A stretch of DNA of 64,000 nt from Escherichia phage phAPEC8. Under the pieces are notes generated by a model that was given only the letters and a program-made list of their open reading frames with translations, searched no databases and was not told the origin of the DNA. How positions within the stretch are numbered: the first letter of the stretch is position 1; each line of letters starts with the position of its first letter. The stretch lies in sequence record NC_020079.1. One strand, given 5' to 3'. Positions 2,969-46,562 of this stretch are shown here, one piece after another. Made by a program: the position numbers and the translations under genes.

Positions 2969-4084
2969 GTGGCAAATACATATTTAACTAACGTAGACTT
3001 TTCAGGAAAAGCTACGGAAGAGTCACTAGGTGCTCATATTGCTTACACTTTTGATTTTCAAGGTGGAGCGGCATCTGGTTATAATACCCCCCTTTTATTT
3101 AAGTCAGACGGATCTCCAGACATAACTTTTGAAAAGTTAGAAGCTCTCACTAAAATGGGAGAAGATGTTACAGAGTTACGTAAAAGCTATATTCAACAAG
3201 TGATGGATCGCATTTCTGAAAAAGTGCGTGAAAAATTTGAAGCTGGTTGGGATTGGGTTTACGTTATTGATGCTGACTTCGATGCGAACGTTGCAATTTT
3301 CTGTTCAGATAACGGTATGTTCTCTGTTGGCTTTAAAGTTGACGGACTGAATGTTGAAGTTGAAGAGGTTGCTAAACCTGTTGTTCGTGTTACTGATTAT
3401 CAAGTTGTTGATGGTGATGTAATGATCTCCATTGATTTCTTTGAGGACGTTTTAGACGATGCTTTGAGTAATCTCGTTAAGAGTTCCTTGAAACAAAGTC
3501 AAGTTAAAGATTATTTAGTGAAAGCTCACGCTAAAGCTAATACAAACTCTGTGGATGCAGAGGCTAACCCCGCAGGTGATAAATCTGCAAACACAACTGG
3601 AATCAATAAAGGAGAAACCCCTTTGGAAAATATCAACAAAGAAGAATTCCTGAAATCTGCTGAATTCCAAGAACTGATGAAAGCACAGATTGCTGAAGCT
3701 GTAGAAAAAGCAGCAGCAGATGCACGTGCAGCCGCAGAACTTGAAGCACAGGAAAAAATCGCTAAGGCAGAACAGGAAGCAGAAGAACTTCGTAAAGCTG
3801 AACAAGCTCGTATCGAAGAAGAATATACAACTGTTGTTAAATCCTATTCTTTCGTAGAAGAAGACAAAGTTGAAGCTCTCGTTAAATATCTGGTAGACAA
3901 TAAAGATATCGCTGAAACTATCGTCAAAGCATTCGAAAAAGCACGTGCAGAAGTGGACGCAGTTAAGAAAGAATTTGGAACAGAACGTGGTGTTGACGTG
4001 ATCAATACTCAACCTGTAGCTAAATCTTCTTCTGAACTGATTAGTCAGAAAGCTGCTGAACTTAAAAAAGCCCAGAAACAATAA
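2969..4084 (+). CDS. scaffolding-like protein with Ala/Glu/Lys-rich coiled-coil C-terminal half
   Basis: 371 aa; C-terminal half is low-complexity, e.g. AEAVEKAAADARAAAELEAQEKIAKAEQEAEELRKAEQ, typical of scaffold proteins; located just upstream of decoration-like and major capsid genes. Confidence 0.45.
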   Translation: MANTYLTNVDFSGKATEESLGAHIAYTFDFQGGAASGYNTPLLFKSDGSPDITFEKLEALTKMGEDVTELRKSYIQQVMDRISEKVREKFEAGWDWVYVIDADFDANVAIFCSDNGMFSVGFKVDGLNVEVEEVAKPVVRVTDYQVVDGDVMISIDFFEDVLDDALSNLVKSSLKQSQVKDYLVKAHAKANTNSVDAEANPAGDKSANTTGINKGETPLENINKEEFLKSAEFQELMKAQIAEAVEKAAADARAAAELEAQEKIAKAEQEAEELRKAEQARIEEEYTTVVKSYSFVEEDKVEALVKYLVDNKDIAETIVKAFEKARAEVDAVKKEFGTERGVDVINTQPVAKSSSELISQKAAELKKAQKQ

Positions 4085-4103
4085 TCTTAGGAGATTAAAT
4101 TAA

Positions 4104-4502
4104 ATGGCTAAAGGAATTACTTTATCTAACTCTCGCCAGGAATTCGGACACCTGGTTCTGGGTGGAGTGTTTAGCTCTGACCTTGGACACTGTGTACGTG
4201 AAGTTAACCTGGTTAAAACAGCAACCATGAAAATTGGTTCTATCCTGAAAGCTGACAACACTGAAGCTGCTAAAGCTGAAGCTGCCGATGCTGCTAAAGT
4301 TCTGATTTGGACTGATGCTCTGTTCGGTATTGACGATGTAGCAGTAGGTGACACTTTCACCGCAGTTGTTGGCGTACGTGATCTTACTCTGAACCGCTTT
4401 GCAGTATACTACAAAGATGGCTCCCTGGTAGATGACGCTGGCGTAGCAGCACTGGAAACACATGATCTGAAACTGACCGAAAAAGTCGTTTTCACTTCTT
4501 AA
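4104..4502 (+). CDS. head decoration-like protein (gpD position)
   Basis: 132-aa ORF directly upstream of the major capsid gene; its initiation region TAGGAGATTAAATTAA-ATG is near-identical to that of the capsid gene, suggesting co-abundant expression. Confidence 0.4.
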   Translation: MAKGITLSNSRQEFGHLVLGGVFSSDLGHCVREVNLVKTATMKIGSILKADNTEAAKAEAADAAKVLIWTDALFGIDDVAVGDTFTAVVGVRDLTLNRFAVYYKDGSLVDDAGVAALETHDLKLTEKVVFTS

Positions 4503-4523
4503 TTTTAATAGGAGATTAATATA

Positions 4524-5525
4524 ATGCCAGCAGTAATTTTAGATCAGGTTGTAGATTTCAGCCCTATGATCGAACTTCAGGATTCCCCTGATACACTGAT
4601 TGCCAGCCTGAATCTGTTCAGTGTTGACTATCATTCAACTACCGCTATTGAAATCGGTAAAGAAAAAGCTGAAGATGCTCTGATCTCCGCTCGTGAGCGT
4701 GGTGGTGAGCGTAACTTCCTGACCATGAAAAATCCAGAACTGAAAGCGTTCCGCATTCCGTTCTTCCCTCTGGATAAAAACATCAAAGCTCAAGATATTC
4801 AATCTTTCCGTAGCTTTGCAATGGCAGGAATCAATGACTCTCTGCGCACAGACGCTGAAGTTGTTAACCGCTATATGTCCCAGATTCTGCGTGACGTAGC
4901 AAAAACCAAAGAGAAAATCTTTGCAGAAGCAGTTATGGGTCGTGCCTATAACGGCGTAGGTGGTGCAGCTAACTCTGCATACAACTGGTATACCGAATGG
5001 GGTGCTACCCAGAAATCTGTTGCTGTAGACTTTGCTTCTACCACTGTTTCTCCAGCAGCCACTATCGAACAAGAAGCTCGTGCTTACATCATCGATACTA
5101 AACAAGATGGCTCTACCGCTACCCGTATCGTAGCTCTGTGTTCTCGTGAATTTTTCGCATCTCTGGTTAACTCTCCGTTTGTTCGCCAGGCGTATCAGTA
5201 TTTCCAGGGAACTCCTAACCTTCTGCGTGACCGCCTTAGCGGTAACATGGATGTTCAGGTGTTCGAATGGAATGGTGTAACTTACATTGAAGATATCCAC
5301 GGTAACATCCCTGCTGGTGAAGCATATGTTCTGCCTATGGGTATCGAAGGTATGTTCCAGGCGCACTACGCTCCTGCGGATACTCCAGAACTGGCTAACA
5401 CCCAGGCTCGTGAACTGTATACCTTCATGATCAGCCAGCACCGCACTATTCAGCTTCAGTCTGAATTCTCGCTGCTCGCAGTTAACACCCGTCCAGAACT
5501 GGTAGTTAAACTGACTACGGCTTAA
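4524..5525 (+). CDS. major capsid protein, lambda gpE-like
   Basis: 333 aa; C-terminal region NTQARELYTFMISQ...ELVVKLTTA parallels the lambda gpE C-terminus (NTQARGLRTYG...EFVSVQLA, from memory); strong SD AGGAG; followed by an intrinsic terminator. Confidence 0.7.
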   Translation: MPAVILDQVVDFSPMIELQDSPDTLIASLNLFSVDYHSTTAIEIGKEKAEDALISARERGGERNFLTMKNPELKAFRIPFFPLDKNIKAQDIQSFRSFAMAGINDSLRTDAEVVNRYMSQILRDVAKTKEKIFAEAVMGRAYNGVGGAANSAYNWYTEWGATQKSVAVDFASTTVSPAATIEQEARAYIIDTKQDGSTATRIVALCSREFFASLVNSPFVRQAYQYFQGTPNLLRDRLSGNMDVQVFEWNGVTYIEDIHGNIPAGEAYVLPMGIEGMFQAHYAPADTPELANTQARELYTFMISQHRTIQLQSEFSLLAVNTRPELVVKLTTA

Positions 5526-39587: not shown

Positions 39588-39605
39588 AAGGGGCAGAAGC
39601 CCCTT
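39588..39605 (-). other. GC-rich stem-loop between polymerase and small downstream gene
   Basis: Perfect 7-bp stem AAGGGGC/GCCCCTT with 4-nt loop; lacks a U-tract, so more likely a processing/stability element than a terminator. Confidence 0.35.
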
Positions 39606-39623: not shown

Positions 39624-42221
39624 TCAATGACAGGATGCCCAGGAATTACCCACATCATATCCGGCAGTAAGCTGAACATTAAGATTGTAAAATTCTCCAG
39701 CCTTAGTAACAGCTAAGGCAGCAAGTTCACCTGCCCGACTATAGGCTGTAAACCATCCACCTTTGGGAGATTCATGAATGTTAGCCCAAATTTGTCCCGT
39801 CTCTTTTTCCTTATTATGCTTCCATTCTTCAACTTTAGCAAGGCATTCTTTATCAATTTTCTTTTGTTCTTCAGGATCGTCTACTTTCTTCCAACCTAAC
39901 GATTCAGGTGAAAACCATTTGAATTCTACAAGGTTACGAGAAACTTCAAGCTGGGCTTCATCGTGATATGCGATCATTTGTTGCACGAAGTCTTTATTCT
40001 TCCAGTCATCTTTAAAGAAGTCAACACTTAGTCCTTCTTCTTCGATCATGTCGTCATAAATAACCATTGCACGTTTAGCACAGATAACCCCACCACTTTG
40101 GAACAGAGAGTTAAGAATCGCGTGAGCAGAACGAGTAGGAACCTTACGACCGTCAATACCCAAAACATATTGTTTACCAGTCTTAACCCAGAAATCGTTT
40201 AAACGTTCTTTAAGACGCGCCAATGGGAATGCAGCTTCCCAGAAAGCATCGAACACCAATTGACCTGTAAACTTATCGCTACCAATTGTTTTAGCAACCT
40301 TGTCGGCTTGTGCACCATAGGTAATACCATACTTAACAGATTTAGCAGGACTACGTTCAAATTTACGTCCAATAGTTTCAGTGATACGTTTTGCCATCAT
40401 TGTGTGAACATCATTAGGTTTCTCTAACAGCAGAGCGTTACAATATTCGTGTGGCTCCGGCTCGTACCGCCAACAGTAGTGTGATTCAATTTTTGCTTCC
40501 AAAGAGTCGAAGTCGTAGCCGATCTGGAAGTATTTAGGAACCTCTACACCAAACAAGTTACGCATCTCCCATCCAAACAAAGATGTGACACGAGGAATAT
40601 TAGCTACAGATCTATGCTTCATACGAGAGGTTGCAGCATCACATGTAGCGGCTGGTGTAGGAATACGCCCATCCGCCCTTACTGCGGCTAAGAAACCTTT
40701 ATCGTATTCTTGATCTTCTTCGTCTTCTTCCCAATCAGCACCGCCACCTAAAATAGAGTTCCTACGATGCTTATACGTTAAGTATTCTACAATCTGTGTA
40801 GCATAAGGGAATTTCTCACCCAAAGCTTGCAGGTTAGGACAGATTTCTTTTTCCTGACCTTTGGTAAAACATGGGTTAGTCAATACTTTAAGACCGCGAC
40901 CTTTACCTTTTGCTATACGCTCTTGAATCTTCCTTTCCAAGGTTTCCGGTGTGCACTCCAGATGATCACAACGGTCCTGACAAAAATTAGAAGATAGAGT
41001 TTGCTCAACGTAAGCTCGAATACCTTTCTGAAGTTCTTCCTCGCTCTTTTTAATCTTGGTGCCAGATTTAAGAGTCAAGTCTTTATCTTTATATTCAGAC
41101 GGTACCCAACCTAATCCTACAAGCCAGTTTTTAATATGGGTTGTATCGTTCAATGTTGCAGGGATGTTAGGATCACACAGAGGCTCATCTGCTGCAACTG
41201 GCAGTTTCCACTCTTTCCCCAACATAACTAACCACCAATCGCCATCCCTCTCTTCCAAATGACCATCATGTTTCTTAGCAAAATTGATCATATGGTTAGT
41301 TGGCTCTAAGTTCTTTTTAATTTGCAACTTAGGTGGAATAAAAGCTTTAAGATAACCTTTTGTTGCTGGTTTAGGTGGCAAAATAGGCTCAACGAGTAAA
41401 CGAAGACGCTCCATTTCTGCATCCAAAAAAGCAAGGTTCTCTTCTGCTTGTTTCATGTTAAAAGCAAACCCACGGTGTTCCTGGCGTGTAATAATGTCTG
41501 CTACACGTTGTTCAAGTTCAAATGGACCTTCCCATTTATCATAATCACCCCATTCTTCCATAAGGTAATTATATACGCTCGTATTGGCTTTGTTGTCATA
41601 GATACAGTAATAAAGCATATCCGCAGCAAAAGTCTTAAATCGATCTTCTTCTGGAATCTCTTTACGGAAATCTATTTTTACATCACCACCTGCTTTTCGA
41701 GAAAGTGCTGCCAAGCTATGTCCTGATTTGCCCTCAATCTTTCGATCTGGGTTTAACACTTTACTCAAAATCAAGGAGTCAATAAGTTTTACCTTATTTT
41801 TGCCCCACGTATTATATTTAACACTGTAATCTAATCCATAAAACAGTTTTGTAGCCAACCAGTCGTAGTTGATACCGTTGTGAGCCACAGCCATTTCAAC
41901 CAGATATTCAGGCTTGTCTTTAAAATAACCTTCATGATTAATAAAATCTGGGAAATCTTTTAGTTGAAAATGTGTGTAATCTTGTGCCACATACTCTTTA
42001 AGAACATATGTGTATTTACCATCTGACTCTTCATAAGGACGCCCATCAAAGATGTATTTAGGGCCATCGTGGAAAGCTACTATTTCTCCTGTTTCATGGT
42101 TCTCTAAGACAATACAGTGCATTTGAAATGTGTCTTTGAGACGATAAGGACTAGCTAAATAATCAATAGTGTCATTATTCAACAATCCGTTTGCTTCAAT
42201 ATCCCATGTAAACTTACTCAC
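39624..42221 (-). CDS. DNA polymerase, family A (PolA/T7-like) with 3'-5' exonuclease domain
   Basis: 865 aa; Exo I motif WDIEANGL at N-terminus; motif B-like RSPAKSVKYGITYGAQ and motif C-like AYHDEAQLEV; GTG start overlapping the methyltransferase stop, with SD AAGGAGG. Confidence 0.8.
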   Translation of the reverse strand: MSKFTWDIEANGLLNNDTIDYLASPYRLKDTFQMHCIVLENHETGEIVAFHDGPKYIFDGRPYEESDGKYTYVLKEYVAQDYTHFQLKDFPDFINHEGYFKDKPEYLVEMAVAHNGINYDWLATKLFYGLDYSVKYNTWGKNKVKLIDSLILSKVLNPDRKIEGKSGHSLAALSRKAGGDVKIDFRKEIPEEDRFKTFAADMLYYCIYDNKANTSVYNYLMEEWGDYDKWEGPFELEQRVADIITRQEHRGFAFNMKQAEENLAFLDAEMERLRLLVEPILPPKPATKGYLKAFIPPKLQIKKNLEPTNHMINFAKKHDGHLEERDGDWWLVMLGKEWKLPVAADEPLCDPNIPATLNDTTHIKNWLVGLGWVPSEYKDKDLTLKSGTKIKKSEEELQKGIRAYVEQTLSSNFCQDRCDHLECTPETLERKIQERIAKGKGRGLKVLTNPCFTKGQEKEICPNLQALGEKFPYATQIVEYLTYKHRRNSILGGGADWEEDEEDQEYDKGFLAAVRADGRIPTPAATCDAATSRMKHRSVANIPRVTSLFGWEMRNLFGVEVPKYFQIGYDFDSLEAKIESHYCWRYEPEPHEYCNALLLEKPNDVHTMMAKRITETIGRKFERSPAKSVKYGITYGAQADKVAKTIGSDKFTGQLVFDAFWEAAFPLARLKERLNDFWVKTGKQYVLGIDGRKVPTRSAHAILNSLFQSGGVICAKRAMVIYDDMIEEEGLSVDFFKDDWKNKDFVQQMIAYHDEAQLEVSRNLVEFKWFSPESLGWKKVDDPEEQKKIDKECLAKVEEWKHNKEKETGQIWANIHESPKGGWFTAYSRAGELAALAVTKAGEFYNLNVQLTAGYDVGNSWASCH

Positions 42222-43015
42222 TATCCCTCCTTTCTAATGTTCTCCAGAACCCACTGAAGTTCTTTTAAACTTAAACTTCTTACTCCCGCAGTTTTACTAG
42301 CTTCAGCTTTAAGTAACGGGTAAGCCTCAATGATACGCGTTTTAAGATCAGAAGTCAAGGCTTTTAAAAAATAGGTAGATGCTTCAGATAAAGAATCCTC
42401 TTCTGATAACACTTTACCTGCACTTGCTCCCGCTCTCCTAACGGCTATGTCGTAGTCTTTACTGTTGCCTAATACGAATAGTCGATTTTCTCCTAAAACA
42501 ACGGGAGAACGCTTCTCGTTGCGTTTAATCCATATCTGGAATACACAAGGAACATCCCAAGGTTCTCCATGAAGAATAAAAGATCCTTTTGGACATTCTT
42601 CTTCGTAAAGAAGATGCATGTGGGGATTTAGTTTGTGTGCAAAAAAGATTTTTTGAAATGTGCGAGGCAAGATAAAACAAATACCACCTTCGTTATCCAG
42701 CATTTCAGCACAATGGTTAAAGAATTTAATGGCAAGACTAGCATTTTTTCCAAACGGAGGATTACCGACAAAAGCAGTTACACTGCCAACAGACTCAACA
42801 GATTGAGCTAAAAAATCTGCCTCAATACAATCTTCAAACTTAGGGTCAATATCAAAAGAAGTTATGTTTTTAAAACAAGAAGAGAAAGCTCCTTCTCCCG
42901 CAGATGGTTCTACGTAGTTAGCTTCCTCTCCAAAAATTTCTTTGATCTTATCACATAAGAACCCCGCATAAGCGGGGTTAGTGTAATATTGATCAAGTGT
43001 GTTCAACTTGCTCAA
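42221..43015 (-). CDS. SAM-dependent methyltransferase, N6-adenine/N4-cytosine DNA MTase-like (NPPF motif)
   Basis: 264 aa; motif I-like VEPSAGEGAF and motif IV VGNPPFG; translationally coupled to the DNA polymerase gene. Confidence 0.55.
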   Translation of the reverse strand: MSKLNTLDQYYTNPAYAGFLCDKIKEIFGEEANYVEPSAGEGAFSSCFKNITSFDIDPKFEDCIEADFLAQSVESVGSVTAFVGNPPFGKNASLAIKFFNHCAEMLDNEGGICFILPRTFQKIFFAHKLNPHMHLLYEEECPKGSFILHGEPWDVPCVFQIWIKRNEKRSPVVLGENRLFVLGNSKDYDIAVRRAGASAGKVLSEEDSLSEASTYFLKALTSDLKTRIIEAYPLLKAEASKTAGVRSLSLKELQWVLENIRKEG

Positions 43016-43024
43016 TAGTCCTCC

Positions 43025-43456
43025 TTAGTTGTTAGCGAACTCAATAGTGAGGTCAACTTTACCATCGTCAGAAATAACCATGTTTTTGGTATTTTTAAAG
43101 ATGATATCTACTTTACCTTCACTTACACGACAGAATGCAACACCATCTGCAACTTTATCGATATAATATTTGTAAGAAAGAATACCCACTTTACTACGAC
43201 CAGCACCTTTTGTGAAAGAAGGGCTTACATCGAAACGGAAACCTTTAGAAGAAACAACACGGTAAGAACGTCCAGTTGGAAGATGTTCAATAACAGAGAC
43301 ATTATTCTCAACAACTTTTACAGCAAACTCTTCAGGATGATCCTCAACAATCATATGTGGGATGGCAAATGCCAACGCTTGTTTGTGTTTAATAACACCA
43401 GCACCCAGAGCACCAGCAGCTTTAACTTTTGCATTCAGATCGATTGTCATACGCAT
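43025..43456 (-). CDS. hypothetical protein
   Basis: 143-aa ORF with SD GAGGAG and its own consensus promoter upstream. Confidence 0.5.
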   Translation of the reverse strand: MRMTIDLNAKVKAAGALGAGVIKHKQALAFAIPHMIVEDHPEEFAVKVVENNVSVIEHLPTGRSYRVVSSKGFRFDVSPSFTKGAGRSKVGILSYKYYIDKVADGVAFCRVSEGKVDIIFKNTKNMVISDDGKVDLTIEFANN

Positions 43457-43489: not shown

Positions 43490-43518
43490 AGTATAAGTCT
43501 CTTCCGTAAAGTTGTCAA
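43490..43518 (-). promoter_or_regulatory. sigma70 consensus-like promoter on minus strand (TTGACA-N17-TATACT)
   Basis: Minus-strand TTGACA (43513-43518), 17-nt spacer, TATACT (43490-43495); 34 nt upstream of the ATG at 43456. Confidence 0.5.
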
Positions 43519-43534
43519 CAGGTATTTTTAATAA

Positions 43535-43550
43535 AAGGGCCGAAGCCCTT
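43535..43550 (-). terminator. stem-loop at primase-helicase stop (probable terminator)
   Basis: Stem AAGGGC/GCCCTT with 4-nt loop overlapping the stop codon; minus-strand downstream sequence begins UUAUU. Confidence 0.4.
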
Positions 43551-45339: not shown

Positions 45340-45618
45340 TTAAAATGGTTCGTTAGTCTCCATCATATATTCTGCTTCTAGTTCTTCCATATGCTTTCTA
45401 AATTGGAAAGCAATTTCTGCTACAGTTACATTTAAATCTTTTTCAAAAACTTCTGTAGAGCCTTCATAAAAACGAATACCGTCAATTAAAAGCCCTCCGT
45501 GGTAATCCCAATCACTTTCACGAGAAAGCGGGTTAGGCTCTTCATAATAGTAATCCACCTCCACGACTAAAGCTTTCCCGTTACGAGCGGTGTATTCAAA
45601 ATCAAAAGTGTTAATCAT
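45340..45618 (-). CDS. hypothetical protein
   Basis: 92-aa ORF between the primase-helicase and glycosyltransferase genes. Confidence 0.45.
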   Translation of the reverse strand: MINTFDFEYTARNGKALVVEVDYYYEEPNPLSRESDWDYHGGLLIDGIRFYEGSTEVFEKDLNVTVAEIAFQFRKHMEELEAEYMMETNEPF

Positions 45619-46562
45619 TATAGCTCCTCAAATAAAAGTCTACGACGCTCATTCAACACATCAATGTGATAATGAGTCCTGACATACTTAGCTAATGCTA
45701 ATCCTTTCTCCATGCAAACATCGGGAGCACTTAATAAGTATTCCGTAATATCTTTCCACTCGGAAGGTGTTTCAGCAAAGAATAACAAATCTTTAAACTC
45801 TTGTGTATGATAATTCTCACGAGGAGAACAGATCAAAGGTAAACCCTTAGCACCTGCCTCAAGAATTTTAAGATTGCTTTTTGCATTATTAAACACGTTA
45901 TCAATCAATGGCGCAAGACTGATTTGATGACCATCGTAAGATTCCATGTAGTTGGCATATGGTCTTACACCTTCATAAACACAAGTTGGTGCTACATTTT
46001 CTCTGATTACAGACCATTCACGACTACTTAAAACTTCAGAATCCCTACGAAAACCACATATTGTAAGATCTTTACCAAAATCGGGCAAGATAGCCAAGTC
46101 TTGTTTATGTGTTTCACTTCCAGCCCAGACTAATGGAGTTTTGGAGTAGCGATCACGGGTCAACACAAATTGACCTTCATCGTAAGGAAGTCCATTAGGG
46201 ATTATGTGCACATTATCATTGTATTGTGAAAGTTCAACTTGCAAAGCAGGTGTCGTAGTTGTAACGAGATCGCTGTGCTCTAAAAACCATTTTAAATGTT
46301 CACGAATACCTGATTCAAAAATACCTTCTAACATGTGTCCTTTTGGAATAACTAAAGAGTCATCCAAATCCATAACCATTTTAAAGCCTAGGTTTTTAAG
46401 GGCTAAAAAGCCCTCTTTACCTTTTGTTGGCACCCCGTTAAAAACGAAAACGTTGTGTTTAGGTTGTGAAGAGAACTGCCTTGAGTAAGGCAGCACTACT
46501 CTATGGAAATCGCAGACACTATAATTGATTCCGTTACGATTGTCAAGAATTATTTGTCCCAT
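45618..46562 (-). CDS. glycosyltransferase, GT-B fold (GT4-like), paralog 2
   Basis: 314 aa; shares extended identity with ORF 46570..47520 (e.g. FNNAKSNLKILEAGAKGLPLICS vs FNNCKSNLKILEAGAKGIPIVCS); K-x-LEAGA-x-G-x-P motif typical of retaining GT-B enzymes. Confidence 0.5.
   Translation of the reverse strand: MGQIILDNRNGINYSVCDFHRVVLPYSRQFSSQPKHNVFVFNGVPTKGKEGFLALKNLGFKMVMDLDDSLVIPKGHMLEGIFESGIREHLKWFLEHSDLVTTTTPALQVELSQYNDNVHIIPNGLPYDEGQFVLTRDRYSKTPLVWAGSETHKQDLAILPDFGKDLTICGFRRDSEVLSSREWSVIRENVAPTCVYEGVRPYANYMESYDGHQISLAPLIDNVFNNAKSNLKILEAGAKGLPLICSPRENYHTQEFKDLLFFAETPSEWKDITEYLLSAPDVCMEKGLALAKYVRTHYHIDVLNERRRLLFEEL

What the first reader, a model, noticed from the sequence alone, without database searches (positions are those of the whole stretch)
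42221..43015. NPPF-motif methyltransferase translationally coupled to the DNA polymerase
Seen in sequence: motif I (EPSAGEGAF) and motif IV (NPPF) of amino-methyltransferases, with the stop overlapping the polymerase GTG start. Inference: likely self-protective methylation of phage DNA against host restriction, expressed together with replication genes. Target base and sequence cannot be inferred.
Basis: partly seen in the sequence, partly recalled or inferred. Interest (0 to 1): 0.45.

Follow-up and report, generated by a model that had tools for sequence, protein, structure and literature searches.

The report
Phage adenine methylase, probably GTAC-specific
This is a real, already annotated but never studied phage DNA adenine methyltransferase gene lying just upstream of the DNA polymerase gene; indirect evidence suggests it methylates GTAC, a sequence that phages carrying this enzyme family also strongly avoid.

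Summary
A 264-aa ORF on the minus strand (42221..43015, TTG start) carries motif I (EPSAGEGAF) and motif IV (NPPF). Its TAG stop shares one base with the GTG start of an 865-aa family-A DNA polymerase.

The window is a Phapecoctavirus (phAPEC8-like coliphage). Public records annotate the same CDS as "putative DNA N6-adenine methyltransferase". The fold and motif order are those of gamma-class N6-adenine DNA methyltransferases. Bacterial relatives (35-43% identity) sit directly upstream of restriction-endonuclease-like genes, so an RNA substrate is unlikely.

The target can be guessed. Published nanopore data for the Vequintavirus Bas51, which has a 54%-identical homolog, show about 99% of GTAC adenines methylated independently of its GATC methylase. 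GTAC is also the most depleted of all 256 tetranucleotides in the window (O/E 0.29). It is selectively depleted in 80 viral loci that carry this family (O/E 0.42, against 0.84 in 120 random viral loci). The GTAC assignment is inferred, not shown.

The polymerase overlap is ordinary: 4 of 18 junctions in this operon overlap by one base, and a 59%-identical relative lacks it. The conserved link is to an adjacent 143-aa gene of unknown function. This is an ordinary orphan phage methylase, with two modestly interesting side findings.

The parts
42221..43015 (-). Methyltransferase CDS, 264 aa, TTG start, TAG stop. Gamma-class N6-adenine DNA methyltransferase family (PHROG 5172).
   Evidence: same bounds annotated in MZ726793 and LR597654
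42980..42997 (-). Motif-X-like N-terminal segment LDQYYT (residues 7-12). D8 and T12 are nearly invariant.
42884..42910 (-). Motif I, EPSAGEGAF (residues 36-44), the AdoMet-binding loop.
42752..42763 (-). Motif IV, NPPF (residues 85-88), the catalytic loop. N85, P86 and P87 are invariant.
42275..42439 (-). Conserved C-terminal region, from RRAG (193-196) to TAGVRS (242-247). Candidate target-recognition part, shared with bacterial R-M-linked homologs.
42219..42230 (-). Junction GGAGGG-A-TAG/GTG: polymerase Shine-Dalgarno inside the methylase 3' end, with stop and start sharing one G.
39624..42221 (-). Family-A DNA polymerase with N-terminal 3'-5' exonuclease motif, 865 aa, GTG start.
43025..43456 (-). 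143-aa partner gene (PHROG 9938, function unknown) with a conserved PS[FY]TKGxGR loop. Always abuts the methylase gene in the phages that have it.
43490..43518 (-). Sigma-70-like promoter match TTGACA-17-TATACT (11 of 12), upstream of the partner gene.
   Evidence: consensus match only
43533..43548 (-). Terminator-like hairpin GGGC-TTCG-GCCC plus TTTT, directly after the primase/helicase stop codon.
   Evidence: read from the sequence
39588..39605 (-). Hairpin AAGGGGC-TTCT-GCCCCTT after the polymerase stop. Annotated as a rho-independent terminator in MZ726793.

Best explanation
The ORF encodes an orphan (no cognate nuclease in the phage), type-II-like, gamma-class S-adenosylmethionine-dependent DNA N6-adenine methyltransferase.

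It is probably transcribed as the middle gene of a three-gene unit: a 143-aa partner, the methylase, then the DNA polymerase. The unit would start at a sigma-70-like promoter just after the primase/helicase terminator. The enzyme would therefore be made together with the replication machinery and would methylate newly replicated phage DNA.

Its most likely target is the palindrome GTAC (giving GTm6AC on both strands). The remaining GTAC sites of a genome already strongly purged of GTAC would then be protected from GTAC-directed restriction (RsaI, CviQI, PabI or HpyAXII-type enzymes, and 6-bp supersets such as KpnI).

Shown here: the ORF, motifs, fold and family; the R-M context of bacterial relatives; the GTAC depletion. 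Inferred: DNA as substrate (about 0.85), GTAC specificity (about 0.6), a protective role (about 0.5), and co-transcription and translational coupling with the polymerase.
For: Enzyme class:
- Motif order X-I-IV with invariant catalytic residues.
- PADLOC type II methyltransferase model PDLC03255, E=1.6e-36 over residues 21-254.
- Foldseek top PDB hits are M.BseCI, CamA, M.TaqI and type I HsdM.

DNA substrate:
- In 8 bacterial loci, homologs of 35-43% identity are followed on the same strand by a ~215-aa ORF. Four of these ORFs hit PADLOC REase_II model PDLC03460 at E=3e-13 to 5e-7, and a fifth (Poseidonibacter) at 6e-4.
- In 11 further loci, more distant homologs are followed by a PD..ExK-like ORF.
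- The family is scattered among bacteria and lies in mobile or phage contexts.

GTAC:
- Bas51 (WalterGehring) virion DNA has 509 methylated GTAC adenines in wild type and 511 in the GATC-methylase mutant (PMC12548924, S4 Table).
- That genome has 258 GTAC sites, i.e. 516 adenines.
- The retron-trigger GATC methylase is bas51_0176, not the homolog.
- Only bas51_0070 (Mod-like) and bas51_0200 (the 54%-identical homolog) remain as candidates.
- GTAC is the most depleted of all 256 tetranucleotides in the window: 60 observed, 208 expected, z about -13.
- Phapecoctavirus has no homolog of bas51_0070.
- In 80 IMG/VR viral loci carrying the family, GTAC O/E is 0.42, the lowest of 16 palindromes. In 120 random viral loci it is 0.84. 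Mann-Whitney p=2e-18. The result holds after clustering into 31 clusters.
- The syntenic 50 kb of the sister genus phi92 has neither the methylase nor the partner, and GTAC O/E there is 0.83.

Operon: promoter-like and hairpin signals and the terminator annotated in MZ726793.
Against: - No biochemical or methylome data exist for this protein or for any Phapecoctavirus.
- Pfam gives only a sub-threshold Eco57I match (15.6 bits against a cut-off of 25.3), and NCBIfam gives nothing.
- In Bas51 the GTAC methylation could equally come from the Mod-like bas51_0070.
- Depletion of a site together with its methylation is not an obvious expectation, and depletion is only correlative.
- GTAC is not clearly depleted around the bacterial R-M-type loci (O/E 0.82-0.87).
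- Homology to the known GTm6AC enzymes (M.HpyAXII, M.CviQI, M.PabI) could not be tested.
- Vequintavirinae and relatives are highly sensitive to the R-M systems tested, so any protection is narrow.
Confidence: 0.55

Rival explanations
1. It is a DNA N6-adenine methyltransferase, but with a target other than GTAC. In Bas51 the GTAC methylation would come from the Mod-like beta-class enzyme bas51_0070, and the homolog would account for some of the 'other' methylated sites.
For: Bas51 has 349-576 methylated adenines outside GATC and GTAC. Two unassigned adenine methylases remain in Bas51. The GTAC assignment rests on elimination and correlation only.
Against: GTAC depletion tracks this family across 80 viral loci and in Phapecoctavirus, which lacks any bas51_0070 homolog. 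By my own knowledge, Mod-like enzymes typically recognise asymmetric sites. Here both strands of a 4-bp palindrome are about 99% methylated, which fits a type IIP-like enzyme.
Confidence: 0.22
2. It is an RNA (rRNA or tRNA) N6-adenine methyltransferase of the METTL5/COG2263 kind, acting on host or phage RNA.
Against: The similarity to METTL5 covers only the ~150-residue Rossmann core. The additional ~100 C-terminal residues align only with DNA methyltransferases. Close bacterial homologs are paired with restriction-endonuclease-like genes. There is a strong full-length hit to a type II methyltransferase model. The distribution is patchy and tied to mobile elements rather than housekeeping-like. 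The family-specific GTAC depletion has no RNA explanation.
Confidence: 0.07
3. It methylates phage DNA, but not mainly for anti-restriction. With its strictly linked 143-aa partner it would form a two-gene module that marks phage DNA as self, or regulates replication or packaging. For example, the partner might read or direct GTm6AC, or discriminate against unmethylated host DNA.
For: In all 16 loci where the partner is found, it abuts or overlaps the methylase. It was never found without the methylase, and the gene order is swapped in Vequintavirus. The module always lies among replication or nucleotide-metabolism genes. Depletion plus full methylation of the same site is odd for pure protection.
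Against: Most family members in phages (165 of 181 loci) and all bacterial ones lack a detectable partner. The AlphaFold2 model of a linker fusion gave pTM 0.62, so no confident complex. The partner has no hit in Pfam, PADLOC or the PDB, and no conserved acidic residue that would suggest a nuclease.
Confidence: 0.12
4. It is an inactive remnant or pseudo-enzyme kept for a non-catalytic role.
For: No activity data exist. The Pfam match is below threshold.
Against: All AdoMet-binding and catalytic residues are invariant across 30 diverse homologs. The protein is 99% conserved across 63 Phapecoctavirus records. The model is confident.
Confidence: 0.03

Closest known systems
Gamma-class N6-adenine DNA methyltransferases with solved structures (M.TaqI, M.BseCI, CamA; MmeI methylase domain)
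   Same: Motif order X-I-IV-VIII, an NPP[YF] catalytic loop and the Rossmann core. The structural alignment runs over 221-249 of 264 residues.
   Different: Sequence identity is only 12-19%. The protein is much shorter (264 aa against 380-550) and has no large separate target-recognition domain. It is below the Pfam Eco57I threshold.
M.HpyAXII / M.Hpy99XII of Helicobacter pylori (GTm6AC, type IIP, gamma class; PMC2588503, PMC3936762)
   Same: Gamma-class adenine methylase. Its catalytic Asn is at position 87, against N85 here. It was likewise undetectable by BLAST and recognised only by threading on M.TaqI. Its target is the GTAC site proposed here.
   Different: It is 331 aa and is paired with a PabI-type 'half-pipe' nuclease. 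Homology to the present family could not be tested because no sequence was available. The nuclease-like neighbours of bacterial homologs show no PDB match, PabI included.
Orphan phage DNA adenine methylases, e.g. the 177-aa GATC enzyme bas51_0176 of Vequintavirus (retron trigger, PMC12548924) and T-even Dam
   Same: A phage-encoded solitary methylase that modifies the phage genome to near completion.
   Different: A different protein family and a different site. bas51_0176 has a 47.6%-identical homolog elsewhere in Phapecoctavirus genomes, outside this window.
METTL5 / Ta1320 / PH1948 (COG2263, 18S rRNA m6A methyltransferase)
   Different: Those proteins are ~200 aa with no C-terminal extension and act on rRNA with Trm112. 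They have no R-M gene context and are not mobile.
P1 DarB ('DarB-like anti-restriction' in record LR597654)
   Same: The N-terminal methyltransferase-domain similarity that drives this annotation: phrog_9133 at 1e-7, and BFVD hits to methylase-helicase giants of 1000-1400 aa.
   Different: No helicase domain. 264 aa against more than 2000 aa. No evidence that it is a virion protein.
Pfam PF26055 Mtase_EDM2 (methyltransferase-like domain of plant EDM2)
   Same: Precomputed, mostly weak hits of this family on many homologs.
   Different: The hits were not reproduced for the window protein or for six homologs with the local Pfam copy. The biochemical activity of EDM2 is itself unsettled (my own knowledge).

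Membership tests
Gamma-class (M.TaqI / Eco57I-like) N6-adenine DNA methyltransferases | Linear motif order X - I (FxGxG-like) - IV ((D/N/S)PP(Y/F)) - VIII, with recognition elements C-terminal | tested here: met
   LDQYYT 7-12, EPSAGEGAF 36-44, NPPF 85-88, DVPCVFQIW 154-162, conserved C-terminal region 165-264
Gamma-class (M.TaqI / Eco57I-like) N6-adenine DNA methyltransferases | Score above the curated Pfam threshold for Eco57I (PF07669) or N6_Mtase | tested here: not met
   Eco57I 15.6 bits against a cut-off of 25.3; no other Pfam family; no NCBIfam family
Gamma-class (M.TaqI / Eco57I-like) N6-adenine DNA methyltransferases | Fold similarity that extends beyond the generic Rossmann core | tested here: met
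Gamma-class (M.TaqI / Eco57I-like) N6-adenine DNA methyltransferases | Sequence-specific N6-adenine methylation of double-stranded DNA | not testable with these tools
   Indirect only: Bas51 GTAC methylome and GTAC depletion
Type II restriction-modification methyltransferase (PADLOC MTase_II models) | Significant, near full-length match to a type II methyltransferase profile | tested here: met
   PDLC03255 E=1.6e-36 (residues 21-254 on profile positions 15-250 of 269); PDLC03256 E=4.9e-28
Type II restriction-modification methyltransferase (PADLOC MTase_II models) | Adjacent cognate restriction endonuclease | tested here: not met
   In the phage the neighbours are the 143-aa partner (no nuclease signature) and the polymerase. 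The criterion is met only for bacterial homologs. The phage gene is therefore an orphan methylase.
GTAC-specific m6A methyltransferases (M.HpyAXII, M.CviQI, M.PabI) | Methylation of the adenine in GTAC | tested here: inconclusive
   About 99% of GTAC adenines are methylated in Bas51, independently of the GATC enzyme. There is family-specific GTAC depletion. But a second candidate enzyme exists in Bas51.
GTAC-specific m6A methyltransferases (M.HpyAXII, M.CviQI, M.PabI) | Sequence homology to a characterised GTAC methylase | not tested
   No sequences of these enzymes could be obtained. A search seeded with a Helicobacteraceae/Campylobacter homolog returned no H. pylori protein among the top 120.
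METTL5 / COG2263 rRNA m6A methyltransferases | Full-length similarity to a ~200-aa single-domain enzyme with housekeeping conservation | tested here: not met
   The match covers only profile positions 4-126 or about 150 aligned residues. There is an extra conserved C-terminal 100 aa. The distribution is patchy and linked to mobile elements and R-M genes.
P1 DarB-like anti-restriction proteins | Large multidomain protein combining methyltransferase and helicase | tested here: not met
   264 aa, a single methyltransferase domain. Similarity to phrog_9133 is limited to residues 5-121.
Pfam PF26055 Mtase_EDM2 | Match to the family model | tested here: inconclusive
   Precomputed hits on homologs, several marked weak. 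No hit for the window protein or six homologs in the local Pfam copy.

The most novel reading that the evidence does not exclude
The methylase and its strictly linked 143-aa partner (PHROG 9938) form a conserved phage module made with the replisome. The module would implement a GTAC-based self-mark rather than simple anti-restriction. The partner would read, direct or exploit GTm6AC, for example by targeting the methylase to replicating DNA or by discriminating against unmethylated host DNA. That would explain why carriers both purge and fully methylate GTAC.
Probability: 0.12. Interest if true: 0.7.

Novelty: new member of a known kind. Interest (0 to 1): 0.35.

Why it matters
As originally stated, the finding is routine. 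Phages often carry orphan DNA methylases, and this gene is already annotated as one.

Three things are added here.

1. A testable specificity (GTm6AC) for a widespread family that has no curated model. More than 2400 homologs were found. The matching PHROG is labelled 'unknown function', and neither Pfam nor NCBIfam has a model that fits.

2. A clear comparative signal. GTAC is selectively depleted in phages that carry the family. This could be used to predict methylase specificities from genomes alone.

3. A strictly co-inherited small partner gene of unknown function.

If confirmed, the assignment would account for the unexplained GTAC methylation in the published Bas51 methylome. It would also predict which restriction enzymes (RsaI, KpnI and similar) fail on phAPEC8- and rV5-like therapeutic phages.

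Tried and rejected
- Curated family libraries gave little: only a sub-threshold Eco57I hit in Pfam, nothing in NCBIfam, and 'unknown function' in PHROGs.
- A single-sequence PDB search found only marginal hits.
- The afdb50 fold library was not available. BFVD gave no named close relative.
[quoted passage not shown] I rejected this: the homolog has Q69, A79 and I83, whereas bas51_0176 has D69, D79 and T83.
- I tried to name the neighbouring nuclease family of the bacterial homologs, and hence its recognition site. All 494 relatives are 'hypothetical protein'. There are no Pfam, NCBIfam or PDB matches. The only link is PADLOC REase_II model PDLC03460.
- I tried to link the family to M.HpyAXII through Campylobacter and Helicobacteraceae homologs. 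No H. pylori protein appeared among the top 120. The HpyAXII paper holds no sequence or primer text.
- GTAC avoidance around bacterial R-M-type loci is weak (O/E 0.82-0.87).
- The AlphaFold2 model of a partner-linker-methylase fusion with a 9-row paired alignment gave pTM 0.62, so it is inconclusive about a complex.
- Literature on rV5, Phapecoctavirus and Stephanstirmvirinae contains no experimental data on this gene. One preprint could not be read.
- The plasmid collection gave only 'hypothetical protein' homologs.
Full report
**Observation**

EPSAGEGAF occupies residues 36-44 and NPPF residues 85-88. An LDQYYT segment at residues 7-12 corresponds to motif X of gamma-class enzymes. On the minus strand the 3' junction reads GGAGGGATAGTGAGT. 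The TAG stop and the GTG start of an 865-aa family-A DNA polymerase (39624..42221) share one G, and a GGAGGG ribosome-binding site lies inside the methylase gene.

**Identity of the sequence**

The region is 99.0-99.6% identical to the 20 best-matching Phapecoctavirus (phAPEC8-like, Stephanstirmvirinae) genomes (63 records cover most of it at 95% or more). In those records the same CDS bounds are annotated as 'putative DNA N6-adenine methyltransferase', 'DarB-like anti-restriction' or 'hypothetical protein'. The protein cluster has 79 members, nearly all from Phapecoctavirus. The gene is therefore already in the databases. I found no experimental work on it.

**What kind of enzyme it is**

Curated libraries barely recognise it:
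- Pfam gives a sub-threshold Eco57I match (15.6 bits against a cut-off of 25.3).
- NCBIfam gives nothing.
- PHROG 5172 matches at 1.5e-110 but is labelled 'unknown function'.
- PADLOC type II methyltransferase models match over almost the whole length (PDLC03255, E=1.6e-36).

A database search found 2465 homologs. In a 30-sequence alignment the AdoMet-binding and catalytic residues are invariant. So are C-terminal residues: R193/R194 in RRxG, G200, and G244/S247 in TAGVRS.

**DNA or RNA substrate**

Genomic context settles this reasonably well. I fetched 80 bacterial loci that encode relatives.
- In eight of them the relative is among the closest bacterial homologs (35-43% identity, full length). 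It is followed on the same strand, within a few bases, by a ~215-aa ORF. Four of these ORFs hit PADLOC type II restriction-enzyme model PDLC03460 at E=3e-13 to 5e-7, and a fifth (Poseidonibacter) at 6e-4.
- In eleven loci with more distant homologs the following ORF has a PD...ExK-like motif.
- Distribution among bacteria is patchy (Sphingomonadaceae, Rhodobacteraceae, Poribacteria, Campylobacterota, Mycoplasma) and often in mobile contexts.

In bacteria the family therefore behaves as the M subunit of type II restriction-modification systems. The phage gene is an orphan copy. I put DNA as substrate at about 0.85. The RNA-methylase rival keeps about 0.07.

**Target sequence**

A literature search led to a 2025 PLoS Biology paper (PMC12548924) with nanopore 6mA calls for Vequintavirus Bas51 (WalterGehring, MZ501111). 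Its S4 Table lists the following methylated adenines:

| Phage | GATC | GTAC | other |
|---|---|---|---|
| wild type | 1405 | 509 | 576 |
| T83P mutant of 'the N6 adenine methyltransferase' | 35 | 511 | 349 |

I fetched the genome. It has 703 GATC sites (1406 adenines) and 258 GTAC sites (516 adenines). Essentially every GTAC adenine is methylated, independently of the mutated gene.

Bas51 annotates three adenine methylases:
- The mutated one must be the 177-aa bas51_0176, which has D69, D79 and T83.
- The 54%-identical homolog of the window protein, bas51_0200, has Q, A and I at those positions.
- The third is the Mod-like beta-class bas51_0070.

E. coli K-12 has no GTAC methylase (my own knowledge). 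GTm6AC must therefore come from bas51_0200 or from bas51_0070.

**Independent support from composition**

- In the window, GTAC is the most under-represented of all 256 tetranucleotides under a maximal-order Markov expectation: 60 observed, 208 expected, O/E 0.29, z about -13. This holds in both the structural and the replication halves.
- Bas51 gives O/E 0.59.
- Phapecoctavirus has no homolog of bas51_0070 but does have one of bas51_0176.
- Across 80 IMG/VR viral loci that encode relatives of this methylase (31-50% identity), pooled GTAC O/E is 0.42, the lowest of the 16 four-base palindromes. The per-locus median is 0.38.
- In 120 viral loci fetched with an arbitrary 15-mer, GTAC O/E is 0.84 (median 0.83), while the other palindromes behave alike in the two sets. 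Mann-Whitney p=2e-18.
- The effect survives clustering of the methylases at 60% identity: 31 clusters, median 0.44.
- In phi92, the sister genus of Phapecoctavirus, the syntenic 50 kb contains neither the methylase nor its partner, and GTAC O/E is 0.83.

GTAC is thus specifically tied to this enzyme family. I put GTm6AC specificity at about 0.6. A known GTm6AC enzyme, M.HpyAXII/M.Hpy99XII of H. pylori, is also gamma-class with its catalytic Asn at position 87. I could not obtain its sequence, so homology is untested. GTAC is not clearly depleted around the bacterial R-M loci.

**The polymerase link**

The one-base overlap is real but not distinctive:
- In the annotated twin record, 7 of 18 junctions in this minus-strand block overlap, four of them by one base.
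- In a 59%-identical relative from a metagenome the order primase/helicase, small ORF, methylase, polymerase is kept. But 35 nt with its own AGGAGG separate the methylase stop from the polymerase ATG.
- In Vequintavirus the gene follows a separate DnaQ-like exonuclease gene. In other phages it lies among ribonucleotide-reductase genes. In GAP32 and Felix O1-like phages it sits in unrelated contexts.

Co-expression with the polymerase is nevertheless likely in this phage. A GGGC-TTCG-GCCC-TTTT hairpin follows the primase/helicase stop. A TTGACA-17-TATACT match (11 of 12) precedes the 143-aa gene. A hairpin annotated as a terminator follows the polymerase. These are consensus matches, not evidence of function.

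**A conserved partner**

The 143-aa ORF immediately upstream (43025..43456, PHROG 9938, unknown function) is homologous to rV5 gp097 (bas51_0199) and to small ORFs next to the methylase in seven other phage lineages. It has an invariant PS[FY]TKGxGR loop.
- In all 16 loci where it is detected, it abuts or overlaps the methylase gene on the same strand. It lies upstream everywhere except in Vequintavirus, where it is downstream.
- A search of IMG/VR seeded with the partner found it only next to the methylase.
- It is absent from the bacterial loci and from most phage loci that have the methylase.
- It has no match in Pfam, PADLOC or the PDB, and no conserved acidic residue.
- An AlphaFold2 model of a linker fusion with nine paired rows gave pTM 0.62, and the conserved loop was modelled at pLDDT below 50. 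This neither supports nor excludes a complex.

**Biological role**

[quoted passage not shown] By my own knowledge of their sites, none recognises GTAC. This argues against broad protection but not against a narrow GTAC shield. It is unexplained why carriers both deplete and fully methylate GTAC. I recorded this in the notebook.

**Verdict**

The finding is a genuine but ordinary orphan phage DNA adenine methyltransferase, already annotated in public records. The emphasis on translational coupling to the polymerase is not warranted by comparative data. The added value is a testable GTAC specificity, a family-wide GTAC depletion signal, and a strictly linked partner gene of unknown function.

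Noticed in passing
window 1-64000 (whole window): GTAC is the most under-represented of all 256 tetranucleotides: 60 observed against 208 expected, O/E 0.29. This holds in both the structural half (O/E 0.35) and the replication half (O/E 0.20). CCGG (0.49) and GGCC (0.52) are also depleted.
   Followed up: yes
window 43025-43456 (-): A 143-aa ORF of unknown function (PHROG 9938) with an invariant PS[FY]TKGxGR loop. It is strictly adjacent to the methylase gene in about 10 phage lineages, and the gene order is swapped in Vequintavirus. It was never found without the methylase.
   Followed up: partly
window 43490-43548 (-) and 39588-39605 (-): A terminator-like hairpin lies right after the primase/helicase gene, then a near-consensus sigma-70 promoter match. 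A second hairpin follows the polymerase. Together they delimit a putative three-gene transcription unit.
   Followed up: partly
L098-L100 (Bas51/WalterGehring MZ501111): 64456-65781, 108091-108624, 124069-124887: Bas51 has three annotated adenine methylases plus a Dcm-like enzyme. The published retron trigger (mutations D69G, D79G, T83P; GATC) is the 177-aa bas51_0176. The published GTAC methylation (509 of 516 adenines) is not assigned to any gene in the paper.
   Followed up: yes
public records hit (e.g. MG065650 'Campylobacter phage B15', OP562383 'Acinetobacter phage vB_AbaM_ABPW7', MW175890 'Dompiswa phage TSP7_1'): Records labelled as Campylobacter, Acinetobacter or other phages are about 99% identical to E. 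coli Phapecoctavirus or Vequintavirus over this region. This suggests host mislabelling or contamination.
   Followed up: no
L305 (phi92 NC_023693, 60001-110000): phi92 lacks the methylase and partner between its primase/helicase-like gene and its polymerase. A 131-aa ORF sits there instead. GTAC is not depleted (O/E 0.83), but CATG is strongly depleted (0.45). The phage carries other methylases (gp121, gp155).
   Followed up: partly
L136 (IMG/VR contig of 129 kb), 825-1631 and 3899-4804: Two copies of the methylase family lie within 4 kb on one viral contig. One of them has the partner gene upstream.
   Followed up: no
L099 20664-24283 and L100 13603-16310 (Bas51): In Vequintavirus the DNA polymerase, the terminase and the anaerobic ribonucleotide reductase are annotated as joined CDSs interrupted by homing-endonuclease genes. 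In this window the Phapecoctavirus polymerase is uninterrupted.
   Followed up: no
window 45618-46562 (-) and beyond: ORFs upstream of the primase/helicase (314 aa and neighbours) correspond to genes annotated as glycosyltransferases in phi92 (gp163-166). The BASEL paper mentions a putative dTDP-sugar glycosylation machinery in phi92-like phages. These ORFs were not examined here.
   Followed up: no
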